DNA from: Thermodesulfobacteriota bacterium
GTDB lineage: Bacteria; Desulfobacterota; Desulfarculia; JACQYL01
Assembly: GCA_963675595.2 (NCBI GenBank)
Contig: CAXXLZ010000002.1
Coordinates: forward strand, 2,432,001-2,496,000
DNA length: 64,000 nucleotides
Direction of reading: 5' to 3'
The notes under the pieces are model-generated. The model was given only the letters and a program-made list of their open reading frames with translations, had not been told where the DNA came from and ran no database searches. Shown here one piece after another: positions 40,516-49,428 of this stretch (its first letter is position 1; each line of letters opens with the position of its first letter). A program made the translations under genes and the position numbers.

Positions 40516-42195
40516 ATGTCCGTAGTCCGACTGGCCGCCATGGCGACCCTCATATGTGCGCTTGTCGCCGCTTGTGCCCCGCGTCCGACCGGGGACGTCG
40601 GCACGCGGCCTACGGAGATGGGCCTGCTGGAAGACCCCGGCGGCCTCATGGACATCGGCCAAGCCGCCGCCCCGGACCGCGCCGGCGATTACCGCATGGA
40701 GCCGGGCAACCGCCTCTCCCTGGGCTTTTCCCTCTCCACCCTGTGGGTGCGCCTAGCCCTGGAACAAACGCCGCCCACCGGCTCCTGGGTGCTGGAGCTG
40801 CCCTCGCCCTGGCTGGATCGAGTGGAGCTCTATCTGCCCCGTCCCCATGGAGGCCGTCTCAGGTTGGCCACCGGCCTGCTGCTGCCGCCGGCACGGGCGG
40901 ACGCCGACTGCTTCGTGCTGACCGCCCCGGAGGACACTCCCCGGCACGGCTACGCCTATCTGCGCCTCAGCGCCCGCTTGTCCCTCAACGCGGCCCTCAA
41001 CATCCGGCCCAAAGCGGCGCTGGAAGGGCACGCGGTGCGGCGAGCCTATCTGCTGGGCGCCCTGTACGGCATCATGGGGGCCATGGTCATGGTCAACCTC
41101 CTGGTGTTCATCACCACCCGCGACCGGGCCTACCTGTATTATGTGCTCTATTTGTTCAGCATGAGCTTCCATCAGTTCTGCCTGCAGGGTCAGGTGCTGC
41201 TGCTGCCCACCTCGGCCTGGCCCCTGATCCCGCAACTCAGCCTGGGGATCACCTCGGTCATGTTCTTTTTCGGGGCCGCCTTTTGTCGCTCCTTCCTGCA
41301 CGTGCGGGTGAACGCCCCCATGTGCGCCCGCCTGCTCACCGGGGTGCAGGCGGCCGCGGTGGTGCTCATGGTGCTCGTCCTGGGGGGGCGCGTTTTTTGG
41401 GGTACCTGGCTGGCGCACTCCATGGCCCTGGTGGGGCCCCTGGTGGGCATTGCCGCCGGTTTTTTCGCCCTGGCCCGGGGCTTTCGGCCGGCCCGGTTCT
41501 ACCTGATCGCCTGGTTGGTGCTCCTGTTGGGGGCCATGGCCTGGGGAGCGTGGAGCATGGGACGGCATCTGCCCGTTCCCCTGGCGCTGGCCGATCGGGT
41601 AGCCACCATGCAGCGCGAGCGCCTGGTGCTGGCCCGACGGGAGCGGCGATACCGCCAAATGAGTGTCACCGACGAACTCACCGGGCTGTACAACGCGCGT
41701 TATTTCTGGGGTTGTTTGGACACGGAGATCGACCACGCCCTGGCCACCGGCCGTCCCTTGGGTTTGGTCCTGCTGGACGTGGACGACTTCAAGCTCTTCA
41801 ACGACACCCACGGCCACTTGGAGGGCGACCGAGTGCTGGCCGAGCTGGGCCGGCTGCTGTGGAACGCCGTGCGCCCCACGGACTCGCCCTGCCGTTACGG
41901 GGGCGAGGAGTTCGCCCTGGTGCTGCCCGACTCCGGAGATGAGGCCCTGCACCAGGTGGCCGAACGGGTACGGGCGACCCTGGCCTCCAGACCTTTCCCC
42001 CTGCAGACCGGCCGGGTGGTCACGGTAACCGCCAGCCTGGGCACCGCCCAGTTCCGGCCCGGCGACGACGCCAAGACCCTGATGGGGCGAGCCGACCGAG
42101 CCCTCTACCAAGCCAAGGCCCGAGGCAAGAACTGCACCGTCGTGGCGGATGAAGACCACCCCCCGCGACCCGACTTCACGATCCCGCCCGCATAG
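40516..42195 (+). CDS. 7TMR-DISM sensor diguanylate cyclase
   Basis: LWVRL and WLDRVELY (DISM2-like), TM region, TDELTGLYN, NDTHGHLEGD, RYGGEEF. Confidence 0.88.
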   Translation: MSVVRLAAMATLICALVAACAPRPTGDVGTRPTEMGLLEDPGGLMDIGQAAAPDRAGDYRMEPGNRLSLGFSLSTLWVRLALEQTPPTGSWVLELPSPWLDRVELYLPRPHGGRLRLATGLLLPPARADADCFVLTAPEDTPRHGYAYLRLSARLSLNAALNIRPKAALEGHAVRRAYLLGALYGIMGAMVMVNLLVFITTRDRAYLYYVLYLFSMSFHQFCLQGQVLLLPTSAWPLIPQLSLGITSVMFFFGAAFCRSFLHVRVNAPMCARLLTGVQAAAVVLMVLVLGGRVFWGTWLAHSMALVGPLVGIAAGFFALARGFRPARFYLIAWLVLLLGAMAWGAWSMGRHLPVPLALADRVATMQRERLVLARRERRYRQMSVTDELTGLYNARYFWGCLDTEIDHALATGRPLGLVLLDVDDFKLFNDTHGHLEGDRVLAELGRLLWNAVRPTDSPCRYGGEEFALVLPDSGDEALHQVAERVRATLASRPFPLQTGRVVTVTASLGTAQFRPGDDAKTLMGRADRALYQAKARGKNCTVVADEDHPPRPDFTIPPA

Positions 42196-42296
42196 GCGCC
42201 CGCCGGACCACCCATGTTCACTGGGGGAAATACCATGTTGGCCTCAGGTGCTCGATCGTTATGATGGAGCATCACCCAAACAGAAAGGAGACCAAC

Positions 42297-43385
42297 ATGG
42301 TAGCAACGAAAGTAACAGAATTGGCCAAGTTTTTGGAGCTGGATATCGACCGTGATTTCCACGTCGGGATCGACGTACACAAAAAGAGCTACCACGTGGC
42401 CGTGCTTCGCAGCGACGGCGAGGTGAAGACTTTTGTGTCCTCGGCCTCTCCGGAGGCCATCGTGGCCATGTTGCTCCCCCACTTGAGGCGCATCCGAGCC
42501 GTAGCCTACGAAGCGGGGCCCACCGGCTTCGGCCTTGCGCGCACTTTGGCCAAAGCCGGGTTCAGCGTGATCGTGGTGGCGCCGAGTCGGGTCCCTAGGC
42601 CGGTGACTGCGGGGGCCAAGACCGACCGCCTGGATTGCATGCGGTTGGCGGACCATGCCGCCCGAGGGATATTGAAGTCCATCGCCGTTCCCACGGAGGA
42701 AGAGGAGGCCGAACGCAGCGTAATTCGCCGTCGGCACGATCTGGCCGACGGCACTCGACGCGTTAAGCAGAGAATTCAATCCCTTCTGCTGTTTCACGGT
42801 GTGGAGGCGCCTCCCGGGCTCAATCATTGGGGCCGAAGCGCTGTGGCGCAACTTCGAAAGCTTCGTCTGCCGAAGGAGGCCAAAGCGACGCTGCTCAGCT
42901 TGCTCCGTGAGTTGAATTTCCTCACAAAGGAAAAAGCCTTCATGGAGGAAAGGACTTCCAGTGTGTGCGAGAAACCTGAACACTTTGAGGAAATGCGATG
43001 CCTTCGAAGCGTCCCCGGGGTGGGTCCCATCACAGCGGCTACCTTCCTCCTGGAATTGTTTCGCCCGAGTCGGTTCCATCGGGTGGAGGAAGTGACCAGC
43101 TATCTGGGACTCGCACCGTTGGTAAGACAAAGCGGAGAGCGGAAATCTCGAGTGGCGCTTCCTCCCGTGGGTCAGACGCGACTGCGGAGTCTGTTGGTGG
43201 AGGCGGCCTGGACGTGGAAGTCCAGGGATCCGGCCATTGATTCGCATTATCGAAAACTCCTGTCGCGAACGGGCCTTCCACAAAAGGCCATTTGTGCGTT
43301 GGCACGGAAACTGGCCGTTGTTCTATGGCGATTGACCATGGAAAAACGGACCTATGAATTTCGTCTCCAAGCGGACCAAGCATGA
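42297..43385 (+). CDS. IS110-family DEDD transposase/recombinase
   Basis: GIDVHK, YEAG, KTDRLD; SVPGVGP, YLGLAPLVRQSG, ALARKL; AGGAG RBS. Confidence 0.95.
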   Translation: MVATKVTELAKFLELDIDRDFHVGIDVHKKSYHVAVLRSDGEVKTFVSSASPEAIVAMLLPHLRRIRAVAYEAGPTGFGLARTLAKAGFSVIVVAPSRVPRPVTAGAKTDRLDCMRLADHAARGILKSIAVPTEEEEAERSVIRRRHDLADGTRRVKQRIQSLLLFHGVEAPPGLNHWGRSAVAQLRKLRLPKEAKATLLSLLRELNFLTKEKAFMEERTSSVCEKPEHFEEMRCLRSVPGVGPITAATFLLELFRPSRFHRVEEVTSYLGLAPLVRQSGERKSRVALPPVGQTRLRSLLVEAAWTWKSRDPAIDSHYRKLLSRTGLPQKAICALARKLAVVLWRLTMEKRTYEFRLQADQA

Positions 43386-43601
43386 GCCGGTTAGGACTTG
43401 TTTAGGAGAACCCAACCGGCTCGGGACCCATACTTGAGGTGGGTCCCGAGCCTCAAGCCGGGAGAAAAAAGCGGAGACGGCCGCGATAAAGTTTGGCTGC
43501 ATCGGTAGCGCTGGGGAAATGGCGGCATCTTCGCTTCTACATCGCATGTGTACTTGGCGCTTCGGGCGCGAATAGGAAACGGTTATCCAATTCCGGCTTG
43601 A
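43384..43601 (+). ncRNA. Predicted bridge/seek RNA of IS copy 1
   Basis: Structured region with AAAGTTT and CTGGGGAAA (target matches) and GTACTT and ATAGGAAA (donor matches) flanking inner hairpins. Confidence 0.75.
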
Positions 43602-43620
43602 CTTGAGGCCACATAGGAAA

Positions 43621-43691
43621 CTTTCGAGAAAGTTACCCCCAGTCCCCTTTCCAAGCTCTTCAAGAACGCCTCACCGCCTTCGGCGGAGAGG
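43621..43691 (+). repeat. Family A repeat interrupted by IS copy 1 (left part at 42221-42230)
   Basis: Rejoined site CTGGGGGAAA|CTTTCGAGAAAGTTACCCCCAG...CCTCACCGCCTTCGGCGGAGAGG. Confidence 0.85.
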
Positions 43692-43718
43692 AGAGAGATA
43701 AGCAGGCCTTGGGCGCTA

Positions 43719-43979
43719 TTATAGCTTTTGCAGCAAAAATTCCTCCATCTTGCTTTTATTAATGGCGATACGAGGGGGCACCCATTCGTTATTCAAAAAG
43801 ACATTTGTCGAACCTTTGAATTTATGGGCATGCGGTTTGGCCTCTTCCGAATCGAGAGTGTATATCTTCACGTCCAGTCTTCCCTCGAATTTTTCCCGCA
43901 TGTCTTCGGCTACACCTATAGCCCTTCCGCATGCGATTCAACGGGCATTGCCGCTGTGAAACACGATCAACTCAGCCAT
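43719..43979 (-). CDS. Small thioredoxin-like selenoprotein (UxxC), 86 aa
   Basis: AAGGAGG RBS; MAELIVFHSGNAR-TGA-IACGRAIG in frame with the 60-aa ORF; hairpin immediately after the TGA. Confidence 0.82.
43897..43937 (-). promoter_or_regulatory. Bacterial SECIS-like hairpin
   Basis: CGCATG..GGCTA-TAGGTG-TAGCC..CATGCG directly 3' of the UGA at 43940-43938. Confidence 0.72.
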
Positions 43980-44112
43980 TTTCCGTTCCTCCTTATTTCC
44001 GGTTCGGTAGCTGTTGGAGGTCGAATGGATTCACTGTATTCTTCCTTGTTCATAGCACGTCCGGCCGACATTTTCCTGCGAGTTGATTTGACCACCGCTC
44101 TATAGAGATTCA

Positions 44113-44189
44113 CTGTGGGAAACTTTCGGGAACGTTTCCCACAGTTCCTCTTCCAAGCTCTTCAAGAAGGCCTCACCGCCTTCGGCGGA
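44113..44189 (+). repeat. Uninterrupted family A repeat (empty IS target-like site)
   Basis: CTGTGGGAAACTTTCGGGAACGTTTCCCACAG...CAAGCTCTTCAAGAAGGCCTCACCGCCTTCGGCGG. Confidence 0.85.
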
Positions 44190-44237
44190 ATGAAATGCGG
44201 CTTGTGCGCCGAAAAACCATCCAGAGGGATCGGTCGG

Positions 44238-44987
44238 CTAAACGATGCCGCCGTTCACATAGATTGTCTGGCCGTTCACCCAGCCGGCATCCGGACCGAC
44301 CAGAAACGCCACGGCATCGGCGATGTCCTCAGGCCGACCGAGCCGCTCCAACGGCGGCATCTTGGCCAATTGTTCGACCTGTTCGTCCGTTTTGTTTTTC
44401 AGAAAAAGGTCGGTTGCCGTTGGTCCGGGTGCGACGGCGTTCACCGTAACGTTTCGGCCGCGCAATTCCTTGGCGAAGATATTCGTCAGCGTCGCCACGG
44501 CGGATTTCGTGGCCGCGTACACCGAATAGCCGGGCAAGCCGAGCTTGCGCACGCTGGAAGAAAGATTGACGATTCGCCCGCCGTCGCGCAGTTTTCCGGC
44601 TGCAACCCGCAGTGTGTTGAATGTGCCCTTGAAATTGACGGCGACAATTTTGTCGAAAAGCGCATCATCCGTATCGGCCAGAGAAATCAGGCCCGGCTGC
44701 ATGATTCCGGCGTTATTCACGAGAATATCAACACCGCCGAAAAGCGCGGCGGTTTGGTCGAACATGGCCGCCACCTGCCCGGGCACCGAAACATCGGCCT
44801 GGATCGCCACTGCTCGGCCTGGTCCGGCTTCGATCTCTCGCACTACGACATCGGCTGCATCGGCCCGACCCGCATAGTTTACAATTACGGCGATGCCGTC
44901 GGCGGCCAGACGTTTGGCAATGGCTGCGCCGATTCCGCGCGATGATCCTGTGACAATGGCCACTTTGGTTTCCGTTGAAGTCTTCAT
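44238..44987 (-). CDS. SDR family oxidoreductase
   Basis: TGSSRGIG, NNAG, YAATK. Confidence 0.93.
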   Translation of the reverse strand: MKTSTETKVAIVTGSSRGIGAAIAKRLAADGIAVIVNYAGRADAADVVVREIEAGPGRAVAIQADVSVPGQVAAMFDQTAALFGGVDILVNNAGIMQPGLISLADTDDALFDKIVAVNFKGTFNTLRVAAGKLRDGGRIVNLSSSVRKLGLPGYSVYAATKSAVATLTNIFAKELRGRNVTVNAVAPGPTATDLFLKNKTDEQVEQLAKMPPLERLGRPEDIADAVAFLVGPDAGWVNGQTIYVNGGIV

Positions 44988-45096
44988 GGCAGCCTCCTTT
45001 GTTCTGTTTGAATGCTTTATACTTCACCGACAATATGGTACCGAGTTTTGAATTTCGGTAGACGCATAAACGGCATGACGGCTATACTGTTTTGGT

Positions 45097-46017
45097 ATGA
45101 CCGTATTCGACGACCTCTCTTTGGTTCGGGCTTTCGTCTGCATCGTGGAAAACGGCGGCATTTCCGCTGCGGCCCGCAAGCTCCGGCGAACTCAACCGAC
45201 GCTGAGCCGTTATTTGCGCACACTGGAAGATCGCTGCGGCACCGTATTGCTGTATCGGGATACGCACCGCATACGCCTCTCGTCCGCCGGCCATCAATTC
45301 TTGGAGGACGCGCGATCCCTCCTGGCATTGGCGGAAGAAGCCGAACAACGCCTGCGCAACGACCAGGCAACCCTTCAGGGTAATATCCGCCTGTTCGCGA
45401 CCATCGACTTCGGCCAAAGTGTCGTCAGCCGCATGATTACCGGTTTTATTCAGGCCAACCCCGCCGTAACCATCGACCTGGCTTATTCCAACCGCCCTTT
45501 GCATATGCTCGAAGAAGGATGCGATGTCGGCATCGTCGCGGGCGCCGTCACGGATGATACGGTTGTCGCATGCTCCATCGGCCCCATTAAACGCTATCTT
45601 GTCGCCTCTCCAGCGCTCCTGAGAACGCATAAAGCCGTTTCCAGCCCCATGGAACTTCAATCCTGGCCGTGGTTGACGTTGTCCGGCGCGCAATTCGGCG
45701 GTGGGCGGGAAGTAACGCTTTATTCGTCGGAACAAGAAGAACAGAAGTTGACCGTATCACCGGTCATGACATCCGAAGGTGTGAGCAGTCTGCGTGAAGC
45801 GGTACGTTTGGGGCTTGGGATCGCCGTTTTACCGGAATGGCTGATTGAGGAGGACATTGTTTCGGGCCGGCTTATCAGGGTTCTGCCTGAGTGGCGAAGC
45901 GGAAACCTACCGGCCCACATCGTTTACCCGGTGCAGCGACGCTTGCCGTCGCGCGTCCGAACTTTCATTGACTTTGCGACCGCTTATATGACCACGGTTT
46001 TGCAGTCAGGTAGGTGA
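45097..46017 (+). CDS. LysR family regulator, divergent from the SDR gene
   Basis: HTH ISAAARKLRRTQPTLSRYLRTLE; LysR substrate domain. Confidence 0.93.
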   Translation: MTVFDDLSLVRAFVCIVENGGISAAARKLRRTQPTLSRYLRTLEDRCGTVLLYRDTHRIRLSSAGHQFLEDARSLLALAEEAEQRLRNDQATLQGNIRLFATIDFGQSVVSRMITGFIQANPAVTIDLAYSNRPLHMLEEGCDVGIVAGAVTDDTVVACSIGPIKRYLVASPALLRTHKAVSSPMELQSWPWLTLSGAQFGGGREVTLYSSEQEEQKLTVSPVMTSEGVSSLREAVRLGLGIAVLPEWLIEEDIVSGRLIRVLPEWRSGNLPAHIVYPVQRRLPSRVRTFIDFATAYMTTVLQSGR

Positions 46018-46236
46018 ATCCAACTGTTTCAAGACAAAGAAACCAAAAGAGGCCTGACCCTTTCGGCTTGGCTTGAAAAGAGGTTTGCAGCCCTTCAACG
46101 GAAGGAGTATTTATTAGGTAGATCTAGAGCAAGAGCCTCGTACCGGTTTGAAAGGAGTCACGGCGTGGGTTCCTTCGGTTTCGAGGCGGTTTCCGTCCCC
46201 ATGAGGACGGAGCCCATCCCGTGAGCTTCTTTGCCC

Positions 46237-46368
46237 ATTCAGAAGAGGTAAGGAACGTTGGAAATGGGCGAGCAGCCCTTCTTTCCCCCCGGGCTCTCCG
46301 CTGAATGCGGTGAGGCCTGTCCAACGTGCAAGGTGGCTCGGGGGAGGACTTTCCCGAAAGTCCTCCCC
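46237..46368 (-). repeat. REP/MITE-like repeat, family A
   Basis: Similar to 38553-38693 (GTAAGGAACGTT, GAGGCCTGTCCAACGTGC, GGGGAGGACTTT-CCCG-AAAGTCCTCCCC). Confidence 0.8.
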
Positions 46369-46428
46369 TGTGAAGGATTCCCTCGTTTCGTCTTTGCTGC
46401 GTCCCTCCGGGAAGAAAGGATGTGGAAA

Positions 46429-48012
46429 ATGAGGATTCGGCTTGCGGTATTCGCTCTTGTCCTGATTTTCGCGGCTGTTCTCTGTTCCTGCGACTCCGGT
46501 ACCAAAACGGACGGCGTTCCCGGCGACAACAAGGTCCCGGCCTCCGTCCTAGCCCTGGCCTCCTCCGTGACCGAGGACCTGGAGGCCCGGGGGTACGAGG
46601 TGGTGCGAGGCTACATGCAGCTCTTCACCATGGACGATTGCGCCCTGGCCATCGCCAAGACGGGCCAGTGCTTCGGCAACAACCCCACCGGACCTTATGT
46701 CTTTCCCGTGGTTCCCGCCTGGTCCGAGGAATACATCGACCCCACCACCCTCAACGTCTTCGGGGAAAACGCGGACGGGTACCTGACCATTCGGCGCTTC
46801 GACCCGCGGGAAGCGACCCTGGTCTTCGGCGTCATGCCGCCGGCGGCCCGCTACTTCGGCTTGCAGACCTACCAGTACACCCGCGAGGGCACGGTGGATA
46901 CCGACAACGAGGTGTATCAGTTGGTGCTGAACACCTTCCCCTTCATGCTGGACCAGTTCTTCGGCCCCGCACCCAACGGGCGGCTCCTTTCTTTCGCCAG
47001 CATCAGCAACAACAATAACAACGCGGTGTTCGAGCGCCGGGCCGGCTCCTTTTTCGATCAAGTGCGGTTCTTCGTCGTCACTCCGGACCAGGCCATGGAC
47101 ACGGCCGTGCGCGCGGCCCTCGCCCGGGCCGAGGTTTCCGACAGCGACATCGTCACCGAATCCATCGCCTCTCCGGTAACCCTGGGCCTGGACAAGGAAG
47201 CGGACGACCTCATCACCGTGATACGCTACGCCCTGCCGGACGACGAGGAAGCCGGAGAGTTGTGGCGCCATGACCTTCCCCTGGTGGTATTACGCGTGCG
47301 GGACCGCGGCGACCGGGCTCCGGAACCCTGGCCCGCTTTCGAGCACCCCCAGGAACGCTTCGACACGAGCGAACTCTATCTTTCAACCGACTTGAATGCC
47401 TTGAACAACAACGTTCGTGCCGCCTGGGGCCTCGACCCGGCCCCCAGCCCGCCCGGCGTGGCCGACCGCATGCTGGACCTTCAACGGGCCTACCCCTTCG
47501 ATCTGGTGGGACCGGACTGCATCCGGAACACCATGAACTGCCTGGCCGACACCCAGGACACCTCCTATGCCGGCACCGCCAACGTGTATCTGGAAAACGA
47601 CGCCGGCGACCAGTTCCTTTATGCCGTTGTCGGCACCCTGGGCACGGAAACGGGGAACGCCACCTACACCAGCCTGTCCGTGTACCGGGCCGCCGTGGTC
47701 ATGGGCGTGGCCAACGTGGACGACGGACAACTGCTGCAATCCCAGTCCTACTTTCCTCAAGAGCCCAACTCTTTCAACAACCAGGACAAGTTCTACCTCT
47801 GGTACTTCGGCCGGACCTGCGCGGCCGCGCCCGAAGCAATCTGCACCGAGATCAACGAGGACCAGATTCCCTTGGGCGAACCCATGAAGTTGGCCCTCCG
47901 GAACTACATCCGGCCCGGCGATGTCCGGGGGCCCAACACCGATCCGCCCGACGATCCCAAAGGCGTCAGTCCCCTGCTGCCGGCCTGGGTCACCGCCATT
48001 CCCCTGCCCTGA
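46429..48012 (+). CDS. Hypothetical lipoprotein
   Basis: Lipobox LCSC, strong GC3 bias, no family recognised. Confidence 0.75.
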   Translation: MRIRLAVFALVLIFAAVLCSCDSGTKTDGVPGDNKVPASVLALASSVTEDLEARGYEVVRGYMQLFTMDDCALAIAKTGQCFGNNPTGPYVFPVVPAWSEEYIDPTTLNVFGENADGYLTIRRFDPREATLVFGVMPPAARYFGLQTYQYTREGTVDTDNEVYQLVLNTFPFMLDQFFGPAPNGRLLSFASISNNNNNAVFERRAGSFFDQVRFFVVTPDQAMDTAVRAALARAEVSDSDIVTESIASPVTLGLDKEADDLITVIRYALPDDEEAGELWRHDLPLVVLRVRDRGDRAPEPWPAFEHPQERFDTSELYLSTDLNALNNNVRAAWGLDPAPSPPGVADRMLDLQRAYPFDLVGPDCIRNTMNCLADTQDTSYAGTANVYLENDAGDQFLYAVVGTLGTETGNATYTSLSVYRAAVVMGVANVDDGQLLQSQSYFPQEPNSFNNQDKFYLWYFGRTCAAAPEAICTEINEDQIPLGEPMKLALRNYIRPGDVRGPNTDPPDDPKGVSPLLPAWVTAIPLP

Positions 48013-48104
48013 CGCGGTATGAAATGCCTCTGGGGAAATACCATGTTGGCCTCAGGTGCTCGATCGTTATGATGGAGCATCACCCAAACAGAAAGGAGAC
48101 CAAC

Positions 48105-49193
48105 ATGGTAGCAACGAAAGTAACAGAATTGGCCAAGTTTTTGGAGCTGGATATCGACCGTGATTTCCACGTCGGGATCGACGTACACAAAAAGAGCTAC
48201 CACGTGGCCGTGCTTCGCAGCGACGGCGAGGTGAAGACTTTTGTGTCCTCGGCCTCTCCGGAGGCCATCGTGGCCATGTTGCTCCCCCACTTGAGGCGCA
48301 TCCGAGCCGTAGCCTACGAAGCGGGGCCCACCGGCTTCGGCCTTGCGCGCACTTTGGCCAAAGCCGGGTTCAGCGTGATCGTGGTGGCGCCGAGTCGGGT
48401 CCCTAGGCCGGTGACTGCGGGGGCCAAGACCGACCGCCTGGATTGCATGCGGTTGGCGGACCATGCCGCCCGAGGGATATTGAAGTCCATCGCCGTTCCC
48501 ACGGAGGAAGAGGAGGCCGAACGCAGCGTAATTCGCCGTCGGCACGATCTGGCCGACGGCACTCGACGCGTTAAGCAGAGAATTCAATCCCTTCTGCTGT
48601 TTCACGGTGTGGAGGCGCCTCCCGGGCTCAATCATTGGGGCCGAAGCGCTGTGGCGCAACTTCGAAAGCTTCGTCTGCCGAAGGAGGCCAAAGCGACGCT
48701 GCTCAGCTTGCTCCGTGAGTTGAATTTCCTCACAAAGGAAAAAGCCTTCATGGAGGAAAGGACTTCCAGTGTGTGCGAGAAACCTGAACACTTTGAGGAA
48801 ATGCGATGCCTTCGAAGCGTCCCCGGGGTGGGTCCCATCACAGCGGCTACCTTCCTCCTGGAATTGTTTCGCCCGAGTCGGTTCCATCGGGTGGAGGAAG
48901 TGACCAGCTATCTGGGACTCGCACCGTTGGTAAGACAAAGCGGAGAGCGGAAATCTCGAGTGGCGCTTCCTCCCGTGGGTCAGACGCGACTGCGGAGTCT
49001 GTTGGTGGAGGCGGCCTGGACGTGGAAGTCCAGGGATCCGGCCATTGATTCGCATTATCGAAAACTCCTGTCGCGAACGGGCCTTCCACAAAAGGCCATT
49101 TGTGCGTTGGCACGGAAACTGGCCGTTGTTCTATGGCGATTGACCATGGAAAAACGGACCTATGAATTTCGTCTCCAAGCGGACCAAGCATGA
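48105..49193 (+). CDS. IS110-family DEDD transposase/recombinase
   Basis: Same protein as copy 1. Confidence 0.95.
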   Translation: MVATKVTELAKFLELDIDRDFHVGIDVHKKSYHVAVLRSDGEVKTFVSSASPEAIVAMLLPHLRRIRAVAYEAGPTGFGLARTLAKAGFSVIVVAPSRVPRPVTAGAKTDRLDCMRLADHAARGILKSIAVPTEEEEAERSVIRRRHDLADGTRRVKQRIQSLLLFHGVEAPPGLNHWGRSAVAQLRKLRLPKEAKATLLSLLRELNFLTKEKAFMEERTSSVCEKPEHFEEMRCLRSVPGVGPITAATFLLELFRPSRFHRVEEVTSYLGLAPLVRQSGERKSRVALPPVGQTRLRSLLVEAAWTWKSRDPAIDSHYRKLLSRTGLPQKAICALARKLAVVLWRLTMEKRTYEFRLQADQA

Positions 49194-49409
49194 GCCGGTT
49201 AGGACTTGTTTAGGAGAACCCAACCGGCTCGGGACCCATACTTGAGGTGGGTCCCGAGCCTCAAGCCGGGAGAAAAAAGCGGAGACGGCCGCGATAAAGT
49301 TTGGCTGCATCGGTAGCGCTGGGGAAATGGCGGCATCTTCGCTTCTACATCGCATGTGTACTTGGCGCTTCGGGCGCGAATAGGAAACGGTTATCCAATT
49401 CCGGCTTGA
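49192..49409 (+). ncRNA. Predicted bridge/seek RNA of IS copy 2
   Basis: Same sequence as 43384-43601. Confidence 0.75.
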
Positions 49410-49428
49410 CTTGAGGCCACATAGGAAA

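What the first reader, a model, noticed from the sequence alone, without database searches (positions are those of the whole stretch)
43384..43601. IS110/IS1111 3' non-coding end encodes a readable RNA guide: one loop matches the target, a second matches the donor junction
Seen: after the transposase stop are two hairpins (43384-43422, 43423-43447). A stem TCAAGCCGG(43453)/CCGGCTTGA(43593) then encloses two parallel modules. Module 1 is GCCGC..AAAGTTT(43488-94)-hairpin GCTGC/GTAGC-CTGGGGAAA(43511-19)..GCGGC. CTGGGGAAA equals the genomic left flank of copy 2 (9/9; 7 contiguous nt for copy 1), and AAAGTTT is the reverse complement of the target core plus right flank (AAACTTT). Module 2 is GTACTT(43550-55)-hairpin GCGC/GCGC-ATAGGAAA(43572-79). 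ATAGGAAA equals the element right end plus core, and GTACTT is a one-mismatch reverse complement of the circle junction AAATAC. Known: IS110-family DEDD recombinases use a non-coding bridge/seek RNA, encoded downstream of the gene in IS1111-type elements. Inference: this is an intact, naturally programmed RNA-guided recombinase whose specificity can be read off and possibly reprogrammed. The class is described; this member and its target may not be.
Basis: partly seen in the sequence, partly recalled or inferred. Interest (0 to 1): 0.93.

Follow-up and report, generated by a model that had tools for sequence, protein, structure and literature searches.

The report
IS1111-type insertion sequence with guide RNA
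This is a jumping gene of a known RNA-guided kind whose own non-coding tail spells out both the DNA site it inserts into and its own right end; it is a clear natural example but not a new kind of system.

Summary
The window holds two identical copies (42228-43617 and 48036-49425) of a 1.39-kb IS110-family element. The genome holds eight copies that encode an identical 362-aa DEDD transposase.

Downstream of the gene, a long closing stem encloses two modules. Module 1 is an internal loop. Its 5' strand (AAAGTTT) is the reverse complement of core plus right flank. Its 3' strand (CTGGGGAAA) equals left flank plus core. The target is a REP-like palindrome that also occurs unoccupied in the genome.

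The decisive evidence is comparative. In 30-31 related elements with other targets, each element's loop strands match its own flanks far better than other elements' strands do (p about 1e-14 and 2e-11). Twelve of 15 stem pairs show compensatory changes.

The 3' strand of module 2 tracks the element's right end across relatives. The proposed 5' donor guide (GTACTT) is no better than chance in this element, so that part stays open.

RNA expression could not be tested. The architecture matches published IS1111-type seekRNA/bridge RNA. Verdict: real, correctly read, a new member of a known kind, of moderate to low interest.

The parts
42221..42230 (+). Left target half (CTGGGGG) plus the ambiguous core AAA (42228-42230) at copy 1. 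The same AAA recurs at 43618-43620, so there is no target duplication beyond the shared core.
   Evidence: all 8 genomic copies have (G)GGGAAA or GGGAAAA immediately before TACC.
42231..42249 (+). Left end: TACC followed by the subterminal inverted repeat IRL (ATGTTGGCCTCAGGT, 42235-42249). TACCAT (42231-42236) would serve as the -10 of a circle-junction promoter.
   Evidence: pair I17 (42239-42249 with 43601-43611, 11 nt, 91%). The left end is conserved in relatives. The promoter reading is by inspection.
42297..43385 (+). DEDD transposase gene (362 aa from the ATG behind the GGAGA ribosome-binding site).
   Evidence: There are 8 loci with a 100% identical protein in the genome.
43384..43447 (+). 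Two hairpins directly after the stop codon (43384-43422 and 43423-43447). No U-tract follows them. Their role is unknown. In the one relative aligned over this stretch (L009, 82% DNA identity), the second hairpin is kept and the first has diverged.
   Evidence: 0 terminator-like sites were found.
43450..43463 (+). 5' arm of the long closing stem. It pairs with 43591-43598 and 43604-43609.
   Evidence: A compensatory G>A with C>T change is seen in the 82% relative L009.
43469..43536 (+). Target-binding arm. It consists of a lower stem (43469-43477 with 43528-43536), an upper stem GCCGC/GCGGC (43480-43484 with 43522-43526), an internal loop and an inner hairpin (43496-43509).
   Evidence: helices 1 and 2 have 9 of 11 pairs with changes on both sides.
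43488..43494 (+). 5' target guide AAAGTTT, complementary to the top strand of core plus right flank (AAACTTT).
   Evidence: Family test: the cognate junction-anchored run averages 5.48 against 1.70 for non-cognate pairs, n=31, p=2.3e-11.
43511..43520 (+). 3' target guide CTGGGGAAA, the same sense as left flank plus core, so it would pair with the bottom strand. The next base, T43520, matches the element's own first base (T of TACC), not the target.
   Evidence: Family test: the cognate run averages 6.53 against 3.34, n=30, p=1.3e-14.
43539..43549 (+). Small hairpin ACAU-CGC-AUGU between the two modules.
   Evidence: Sequence inspection. The 82% relative L009 has GCAU-CGC-AUGC, a compensatory A-U to G-C change. 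Other relatives have GUACC-loop-GGUAC instead.
43550..43556 (+). 5' donor strand GTACTTG. Only GTA (against TAC of the left end) and TT (against the core AA) are complementary, with a C opposite A between them. This is a possible left-end guide and is weakly supported.
   Evidence: not beyond chance. (GGTA with TACC ends, ATTA with TAAT ends, with exceptions).
43557..43569 (+). Donor-module hairpin (GCGC/GCGC).
   Evidence: helix 3 has 100% of cells paired and 3 of 4 pairs with changes on both sides.
43572..43580 (+). 3' donor guide ATAGGAAA, the same sense as right end plus core. The next base, C43580, matches the target's first base after the core, not the element's left end.
   Evidence: The guide hexamer follows the right-end variants AGGAAA, AAGAAA, AAGATA, AACAG and AGCAG in relatives.
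43598..43620 (+). Right end. It holds a -35-like TTGACT (43598-43603), IRR ACTTGAGGCCACAT (43601-43614), the terminal AGG and the core AAA (43618-43620). In a circle, TTGACT would sit 17 nt from TACCAT.
   Evidence: TTGACA sits at the same place in relatives. The promoter reading is by inspection.
43621..43690 (+). Right target half (CTTTCGAGAAAGTTACCCCCAG) and the rest of a REP-like composite repeat. With the left half it forms a palindrome of the type GGGGGAAACTTTCGAGAAAGTTTCCCCC.
   Evidence: Unoccupied palindromes occur elsewhere in the genome.
48036..49425 (+). Copy 2 of the element, identical to copy 1. All features are offset by +5808, so its guides lie at 49296-49302, 49319-49327, 49358-49363 and 49380-49387.
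   Evidence: both copies score 110.2 bits with model R1.

Best explanation
The finding lies in the 3' non-coding region of an active IS1111-type member of the IS110 family. That region encodes a seekRNA/bridge RNA on the transposase strand.

**Proposed mechanism**
1. Excision gives a circle. Its RE-LE junction assembles a promoter (TTGACT, 17 nt, TACCAT).
2. The transcript runs through the transposase gene into the NCR. The structured part, about 43450-43609, is retained by the DEDD transposase.
3. The internal loop of the first arm reads the target on both strands. AAAGUUU pairs with the top strand of AAA-CTTT. CUGGGGAAA pairs with the bottom strand of CTGGGG-AAA. The two overlap on the core.
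4. The second module reads the donor junction. AUAGGAAA pairs with the bottom strand of the right end plus core. The 5' strand GUACUU may touch TAC of the left end.
5. Strand exchange happens within the shared AAA core. It places the element, without duplication, in one arm of a REP-like palindrome.

**What is shown**
- The anatomy and the intact catalytic residues.
- Eight identical copies at sites that fit the guides.
- Guide/target and guide/right-end covariation in relatives, and compensatory stem changes.

**What is inferred**
- Transcription and processing of the RNA.
- Binding of the RNA to the transposase.
- The circle promoter and the exact cleavage positions.
For: 1. **Family.** The protein matches Pfam PF01548 and PF02371 and NCBIfam NF033542 'IS110 family RNA-guided transposase' at 228.5 bits. 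The IS621 catalytic D, E, D, D and S columns are conserved (residue names come from passages of PMC11208158).
2. **Recent activity.** The genome holds 8 full-length copies with a 100% identical transposase.
3. **Sites.** All 8 copies sit after (G)GGGAAA. Seven are followed by C(T/C)TT and one (L006) by AACT. Five are in the same REP-like palindrome, in both orientations. Unoccupied palindromes exist.
4. **Structure in this element.** The fold has z = -4.18.
5. **Structure across relatives.**
   - A covariance model built from 10 NCRs finds 41 matches in 91 sources.
   - 12 of 15 pairs change on both sides, and 87.8% of cells are paired against 76.3% in shuffles.
   - Sliding the partner columns gives 14.9-48.3% paired.
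   - G-U pairs occur on the + strand, which fits an RNA of transposase sense.
6. **Covariation with targets.**
   - The junction-anchored match of each element's 3' loop strand to its own left flank averages 6.53 nt against 3.34 for other elements' strands (30 elements, 868 controls, p=1.3e-14).
   - The 5' strand against the right flank averages 5.48 against 1.70 (31 elements, 930 controls, p=2.3e-11).
   - Example L026 reads GUUCUAAUUUU with flank AAAATTAGAAC (11/11).
   - Example L031 reads GAUAUCAAAAU with flank GATATCAAAAT (11/11).
7. **Redirection within the genome.** The truncated 82% relative L009 keeps the donor module but changes the 3' target guide to CCTGCAAA. Its 5' guide matches its own right flank over 9 nt.
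8. **Donor 3' strand.** It follows the right-end variants in relatives.
9. **Strand order.** The top-strand match lies 5' of the bottom-strand match and the matches overlap on the target. This is as reported for IS1111-family seekRNAs (PMC11187229, Results read).
Against: - No RNA evidence exists.
- Rfam 15 gives no hit, so identification rests on my own model.
- Within this element alone the two target matches together arise in 14 of 5000 shuffles. That is suggestive but not overwhelming.
- The 5' donor strand is no better than chance here (3235 of 5000). It carries a mismatch that is conserved in relatives. In most close relatives it is one arm of a small hairpin. One lineage (L029-L031) does not fit the guide reading.
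- The related elements are not independent samples, so the p-values are overstated.
- 7 of 37 distinct elements were dropped from the left-flank test and 6 of 37 from the right-flank test. They lacked a recognisable end motif or enough flank.
- Several cognate runs are short (0-4 nt).
- The 5' target guide predicts AAACTTTATC, but real sites match only 7 nt.
- The transposase has 362 aa, slightly above the 330-350 aa given for IS1111 transposases in PMC11187229.
Confidence: 0.88

Rival explanations
1. Only module 1 is an RNA guide (a seekRNA for the target). Module 2 is a protein-binding scaffold, or an internal DNA copy of the right end. Under this reading the ends are recognised by the transposase through the subterminal inverted repeats, not by RNA pairing.
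For: - The 5' donor strand is not beyond chance in this element.
- It is sequestered in a GUACC/GGUAC hairpin in most close relatives, and it fails in L029-L031.
- PMC11187229 reports that the short 82-nt ISEc11 seekRNA suffices for transposition, and stresses target-derived flanks rather than a donor loop.
- The element has long subterminal inverted repeats.
Against: - The 3' donor strand matches right end plus core over 8 nt (61 of 5000 shuffles). It changes together with the right end in relatives, with four or five distinct states.
- Both modules have the same layout: guide, hairpin, guide ending in the core.
Confidence: 0.08
2. The matches are coincidence. On this reading the region is just a structured 3' UTR (stabiliser or terminator) of the transposase mRNA.
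For: - Individual matches are short.
- Single-match chance within this element is 2% for the left flank and 10% for the right flank.
- No RNA data exist.
Against: - Covariation of both loop strands with the flanks is seen across about 30 elements with different targets.
- Compensatory stem changes support the structure.
- No terminator-like site is present.
Confidence: 0.02
3. The architecture is a bridge/seek RNA, but the element is now silent in this genome: the RNA is not made, or the copies no longer move.
For:
- No promoter was found inside the NCR; the only internal promoter-like site is at 42238-42265.
Against: - Eight copies are identical over 1.39 kb, and all have an intact transposase.
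- A 99% variant with unchanged guide loops occurs in runs labelled as another organism.
Confidence: 0.02

Closest known systems
IS1111-family seekRNA elements: ISEc11, ISPa11, ISKpn4 (Siddiquee et al. 2024, PMC11187229)
   Same: - The NCR lies downstream of the transposase gene and the element has subterminal inverted repeats.
- A 7-nt left extension is counted with the core.
[quoted passage not shown] - There is no target duplication.
- A junction promoter forms on the circle.
- ISPa11 also targets a REP.
   Different: - The transposase is only about 25% identical to the IS1111-type IS5075/IS4321 proteins.
- It has 362 aa against the 330-350 aa given for the family.
- The target is different (GGGGAAA|CTTT, in a palindrome of this genome).
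- There is no experimental evidence here.
- The published folds are in supplementary figures that I could not open.
IS621 bridge RNA (Durrant et al. 2024, PMC11208160; Hiraizumi et al. 2024, PMC11208158)
   Same: - It uses a DEDD/Ser recombinase.
- One RNA carries a target loop followed by a donor loop. Each loop reads both strands around a shared core.
- It targets a REP.
- Catalytic residues are conserved in alignment.
   Different: - The RNA is encoded at the 3' end, not the 5' end.
- The order of strands within each loop is reversed.
- The inverted repeats are long and subterminal.
- The core is A-rich (within AAA) instead of CT.
- The protein matches IS621 only weakly (E = 3.9e-10, in two partial stretches).
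- The 5' donor strand is poorly complementary.
ISPpu9 with its downstream Ssr9 small RNA in Pseudomonas putida (PMC12288879; search listing and start of abstract only)
   Same: It is an IS110-family element inserted in REP sequences, with a small RNA gene downstream of the transposase gene.
   Different: I did not compare the sequences. The paper reports extra free-standing ssr9 copies. Here model R1 was run only on the window and fetched loci, not on the whole genome, so free-standing copies were not looked for.

Membership tests
IS110 family (DEDD RNA-guided transposases) | Transposase with the DEDD_Tnp_IS110 and Transposase_20 domains | tested here: met
   PF01548 at 1.4e-15 and PF02371 at 4.3e-22. 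NF033542 at 228.5 bits against a cut-off of 140.
IS110 family (DEDD RNA-guided transposases) | Catalytic D, E, D, D of the RuvC-like domain, and the Ser of the G--P----SG motif | tested here: met
   The alignment to the IS621 chain 8wt6 shows GIDV, YEAG, KTDRLD and GLAPLVRQSG in the matching columns. Residue roles come from passages of PMC11208158. The motif comes from PMC11187229.
IS110 family (DEDD RNA-guided transposases) | Site-specific insertion without target duplication | tested here: met
   All 8 copies share the same junctions and only the core AAA recurs. Unoccupied sites exist.
IS1111 subgroup | Subterminal inverted repeats of 7-17 bp with short terminal extensions | tested here: met
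   Arms 42239-42249 and 43601-43611 are 11 nt and 91% complementary. They extend to ATGT/ACAT with one indel by inspection. The extensions are 7 nt on the left (AAATACC) and 3 nt on the right (AGG). The 7-bp left extension is named in PMC11187229. The 3-nt right extension is recalled.
IS1111 subgroup | Long NCR downstream of the transposase gene | tested here: met
   There are 232 nt between the stop codon (43385) and the right end, against 66-69 nt upstream of the start codon.
IS1111 subgroup | Transposase related over its full length to the IS1111 transposase and clustering with that clade | tested here: inconclusive
   tblastn gives 25.5% identity over 92% of the query to the IS5075/IS4321 proteins. 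No tree was built and no ISfinder set was available. The length of 362 aa lies outside the 330-350 aa quoted in PMC11187229.
seekRNA / bridge RNA | One internal loop with segments complementary to both strands of the target, overlapping at the core | tested here: met
   The strand order fits the IS1111 type.
seekRNA / bridge RNA | Guide segments covary with the targets of related elements | tested here: met
   (p=1.3e-14 and p=2.3e-11).
seekRNA / bridge RNA | A second loop complementary to both strands of the donor junction | tested here: inconclusive
   The 3' strand is met. The 5' strand is not beyond chance here and is inconsistent among relatives.
seekRNA / bridge RNA | The RNA is transcribed and bound by the transposase | not testable with these tools
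   No RNA run is listed.
seekRNA / bridge RNA | Match to a curated RNA family | tested here: not met
   No Rfam 15 match at E up to 1 in 41500-44500.

The most novel reading that the evidence does not exclude
In this clade the donor may be read asymmetrically, and strand order may be mirrored relative to IS621.

**Asymmetric donor reading.** The RNA reads the right end plus core with a full guide. The left end meets only 3-4 complementary bases (GUA or GGUA against TAC or TACC) and a conserved C opposite A. In most relatives that strand is locked in a hairpin that mimics the left end. The left end may therefore be recognised mainly by protein, through the subterminal repeat, or by a switchable hairpin.

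**Mirrored handshake positions.**
- The base after the core in each 3' guide matches the other DNA partner. U43520 equals the donor's T, and C43580 equals the target's C.
- That would put handshake-like positions on the guides that read the bottom strand. It suggests that IS1111-type elements exchange the opposite strand first, or that these guides are tuned to the integrated junctions used in excision.
Probability: 0.2. Interest if true: 0.55.

Novelty: new member of a known kind. Interest (0 to 1): 0.3.

Why it matters
It adds a clean, multi-copy natural example of an IS1111-type RNA-guided recombinase whose target, a REP-like palindrome, can be read from the RNA. The related metagenomic clade also provides some 30 natural guide/target pairs. 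Those pairs could help define programming rules for 3'-encoded bridge RNAs, which are less studied than those of the IS621 type. It opens no new question. NCBI's own annotation model already names the protein family 'RNA-guided transposase', and published surveys predict a bridge RNA in 93% of IS1111 elements (PMC11208160, passage).

Tried and rejected
- **Rfam.** The scan of 41500-44500 gave no hit.
- **Plasmids, DNA search.** Megablast of the element against plasmids gave no match.
- **Loop parser.** A hand-written parser for internal loops gave unreliable loop calls. I replaced it with covariance model R1.
- **First covariation test.** This test took the longest common substring over 750-nt flanks.
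  - The result was significant but noisy, because the core-adjacent bases are shared.
  - The 3' guide averaged 7.0 against 5.9, p=3e-5. The 5' guide averaged 7.48 against 5.44, p=5e-12.
  - I replaced it with the junction-anchored test.
- **RNA runs.** No RNA holder was listed.
- **Laying DNA runs.**
  - Four DNA runs laid on 41700-44200 gave contigs only.
  - Contigs break at the element's ends, and no contig joins across an empty site.
  - So this gave no independent check of the boundaries and no circle junction.
  - It did show a variant with 10 substitutions and one inserted base, with unchanged guide loops, in runs labelled organism B.
- **Tritonibacter plasmid relative.** This relative is 46.8% identical at the protein level.
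  - R1 finds the RNA at 41.9 bits, and the left flank matches the 3' guide over 6 nt.
  - I could not locate the right end, so it is left out of all counts.
- **Protein cluster.** The look-up shows only 3 members at 90% identity and no names.
- **Supplements.** Paper supplements are closed. The long seekRNA folds and any donor-side analysis of IS1111 elements in PMC11187229 and PMC11208160 are in supplementary or extended figures that I could not see. They may bear on the 5' donor strand.
- **Literature search.** My paper searches were for the class. I did not search print for this particular element, so 'not described' is not claimed.
Full report
**What is there**

The finding lies in the 3' part of a 1.39-kb insertion sequence. 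The window holds two identical copies of it, 5808 bp apart.
- With the ambiguous AAA counted on the left, copy 1 is 42228-43617 and copy 2 is 48036-49425.
- The element's single gene (42297-43385, 362 aa) matches Pfam PF01548 and PF02371.
- It also matches NCBIfam NF033542, which NCBI names 'IS110 family RNA-guided transposase', at 228.5 bits against a cut-off of 140.
- In alignment with the solved IS621 transposase, the columns of the catalytic D, E, D, D and Ser are conserved: GIDV, YEAG, KTDRLD and GLAPLVRQSG (residue roles from passages of PMC11208158).
- The genome is 6.8 Mb in 3 contigs. It holds 8 full-length copies, all encoding the identical protein.
- It also holds a truncated relative at 82% DNA identity (L009) and a 73-bp left-end fragment (L010).

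**The observation**

The RNA fold of 43384-43640 reproduces the described layout.
- Two hairpins follow the stop codon.
- A long closing stem pairs 43450-43463 with 43591-43598 and 43604-43609.
- An arm at 43469-43536 carries an internal loop around hairpin 43496-43509.
- A GCGC hairpin lies at 43557-43569.
- The MFE is -107.1 kcal/mol and z is -4.18; 1 of 200 shuffles folds as well.

Taken alone, the matches are suggestive rather than conclusive. In 5000 dinucleotide shuffles of the NCR:
- a left-flank match of at least 9 nt arose 109 times;
- a right-flank reverse-complement match of at least 7 nt arose 513 times;
- both together arose 14 times;
- a right-end match of at least 8 nt arose 61 times;
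- a left-end reverse-complement match of at least 5 nt arose 3235 times.

So the proposed 5' donor guide GTACTT is not beyond chance in this element.

**Ends and target**
- All 8 copies begin after (G)GGGAAA. Seven end before C(T/C)TT and one (L006) before AACT.
- The AAA, or up to GGAAA, is present at both junctions, so there is no duplication beyond a shared core.
- Subterminal inverted repeats lie at 42239-42249 and 43601-43611. They extend to ATGT/ACAT with one indel.
- This leaves a 7-nt left extension (AAATACC) and a 3-nt right extension (AGG), the IS1111 pattern. The 7-bp extension is named in PMC11187229. The 3-nt figure is recalled.
- Five of the 8 copies sit in one arm of the same REP-like palindrome, GGGGGAAACTTTCGAGAAAGTTTCCCCC, in both orientations. 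One sits in a related palindrome and two elsewhere.
- Unoccupied palindromes exist in the genome. They form part of a longer composite repeat whose other half has about 90 or more copies.
- By inspection, a circle junction would place TTGACT (43598-43603) 17 nt from TACCAT (42231-42236). TTGACA stands at the same place in relatives.

**Comparative test of structure**

- Protein-guided scans gave 15 loci from genomes and 80 from metagenomes, at 36-58% protein identity.
- Ten NCRs of the closest group aligned well and gave a consensus of three helices.
- A covariance model built from them (R1) found 41 matches at E up to 1 in 91 sources.
- Twelve of those matches scored 88-112 bits, including both window copies.
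- On that alignment 12 of 15 pairs change on both sides, and 87.8% of cells are paired against 76.3% in shuffles.
- Sliding the partner columns gives 14.9-48.3% paired. The alignment was fitted to the model, which favours it somewhat.
- G-U pairs on the + strand fit an RNA of transposase sense.

**Guides against flanks**
- I took the loop columns of that alignment as guides and located element ends by their conserved motifs.
- I then measured the contiguous match of each guide to the flank, anchored at the junction.
- Of 37 distinct guide pairs, 30 had a usable left flank and 31 a usable right flank. The rest lacked a motif or enough sequence and were dropped.
- The 3' guide matched its own left flank over 6.53 nt on average, against 3.34 nt for other elements' guides (868 comparisons, p=1.3e-14).
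- The 5' guide matched its own right flank over 5.48 nt, against 1.70 nt (930 comparisons, p=2.3e-11).
- The elements are related, so these p-values are overstated. Several cognate runs are short (0-4 nt).

Individual cases are clear:
- L026 has guides GUUCUAAUUUU and CCCAAAAA, with flanks AAAATTAGAAC and CCCAAAAA.
- L031 has GAUAUCAAAAU with flank GATATCAAAAT.
- A seven-copy element in a Desulfovibrionaceae MAG has UCUCCAAAA and AAAGUUUU, with flanks (T)TTCCAAAA and AAAACTTT.
- Inside the window's own genome, the 82% relative L009 keeps the donor module but carries a different 3' target guide (CCTGCAAA). Its 5' guide matches its own right flank over 9 nt. It also shows a compensatory change in the closing stem.

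**The donor module**

The 3' strand (AUAGGAAA, 43572-43579) equals the right end plus core. In relatives it changes with the right end: AGGAAA, AAGAAA, AAGATA, AACAG and AGCAG. Most elements agree at 5-6 of 6 positions, and a few have one mismatch.

The 5' strand is a different matter.
- Relatives with a TACC left end mostly carry GGUAC, and those with a TAAT left end mostly carry AUUA. That is a two-state agreement.
- However, a C always faces the A next to the core.
- The window element has only GUA.
- In most close relatives GGUAC is one arm of a GUACC-loop-GGUAC hairpin.
- The lineage L029-L031 fits the hairpin but not the guide.

I therefore count this strand as open.

**A small detail**
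- The base after the core in the 3' target guide (U43520) is the element's own first base, not the target's.
- The base after the core in the 3' donor guide (C43580) is the target's first base.
- So each 3' guide matches the integrated junction one base further than it matches the substrates.
- This resembles the handshake positions of IS621 (passages of PMC11208158). There they sit beside the guides that read the top strand.
- With one base in this element, and mixed agreement in relatives, this is a lead only.

**Comparison with the literature**
- PMC11187229 (outline and the whole Results section read) reports several features for ISEc11, ISPa11 and ISKpn4.
  - A seekRNA derived from the 3' NCR co-purifies with the transposase.
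[quoted passage not shown] - The RNA can be reprogrammed.
- The window element has exactly this arrangement.
- PMC11208160 (passages only) states that a bridge RNA was predicted in 93.0% of IS1111 elements, in the right end.
- A 2026 review (PMC13604230, passages) treats both systems as established.
- The element is therefore a new member of a known kind.
- Its protein cluster has only 3 members at 90% identity and no name. The best relatives are 46-58% identical.
- Subgroup membership by phylogeny was not tested. Identity to the IS5075/IS4321 proteins is 25.5% over 92% of the query.

**What could not be done**

No RNA run is listed for this sequence, so transcription, processing and protein binding are inferred. 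Laid DNA contigs break at the element's ends and gave no empty-site or circle joint.

**Verdict**

The exception is the 5' donor guide, which stays open. Confidence in an IS1111-type seekRNA/bridge RNA that reads GGGGAAA|CTTT is 0.88. Interest is 0.3, because the class, its location and its logic are already in print and in annotation pipelines.

Noticed in passing
window 42231-42245 with 42288-42302: The left end, including the inverted repeat (TACCATGTTGGCCTC), is 93% complementary to the ribosome-binding site and start codon region of the transposase gene (GAGACCAACATGGTA) (pair I2). The CCATGTTGG/CCAACATGG pairing is also present in relatives. It looks like the usual device that blocks translation of read-through transcripts from outside. 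Transcripts starting at the junction promoter or the internal promoter-like site would lack the 5' arm.
   Followed up: partly
window 43621-48035: The two direct copies flank a 4.4-kb segment. It holds a short-chain dehydrogenase (44238-44987, minus strand), a LysR-type regulator (45097-46017) and a 584-aa ORF with no Pfam match (46258-48012). The segment could be excised or inverted by recombination between the copies. This was not examined.
   Followed up: partly
G000 C1:339442-339997 (L009), about 3 kb from copy L003: This is a truncated relative at 82% DNA identity, with 71% protein identity over residues 236-362. Its donor module is the same but its 3' target guide is different (CCTGCAAA). 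Its left part is missing, so its left flank cannot be checked.
   Followed up: partly
G000 C2:4378307, 4378551 and 4381544: A CRISPR-like array has a repeat ending in GCGGGGAAAC, spaced at multiples of about 61 bp. The repeat end equals the element's left target half plus core plus C. Where the next bases are TTT, the full 11-nt target arises. No copy is inserted there. The array itself was not verified with a tool.
   Followed up: no
G000, several places: Two further IS110-family groups are present in the same genome. One has 5 loci at about 30% protein identity to this transposase. The other has 7 loci at about 28%. Their RNAs were not examined.
   Followed up: no
window 42238-42265: One sigma-70-like site (TTGGCC, 16 nt, TATGAT) lies inside the left end, upstream of the transposase start (0.3 expected in shuffles). 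It may be a weak resident promoter for integrated copies.
   Followed up: no
window 43459-43469, in runs X4 and X5: Runs labelled as another organism hold a variant of the element with 10 substitutions and one inserted base. In the NCR the changes are one inserted G behind 43459, and A>C at 43466 and 43469. All lie outside the guide loops.
   Followed up: partly
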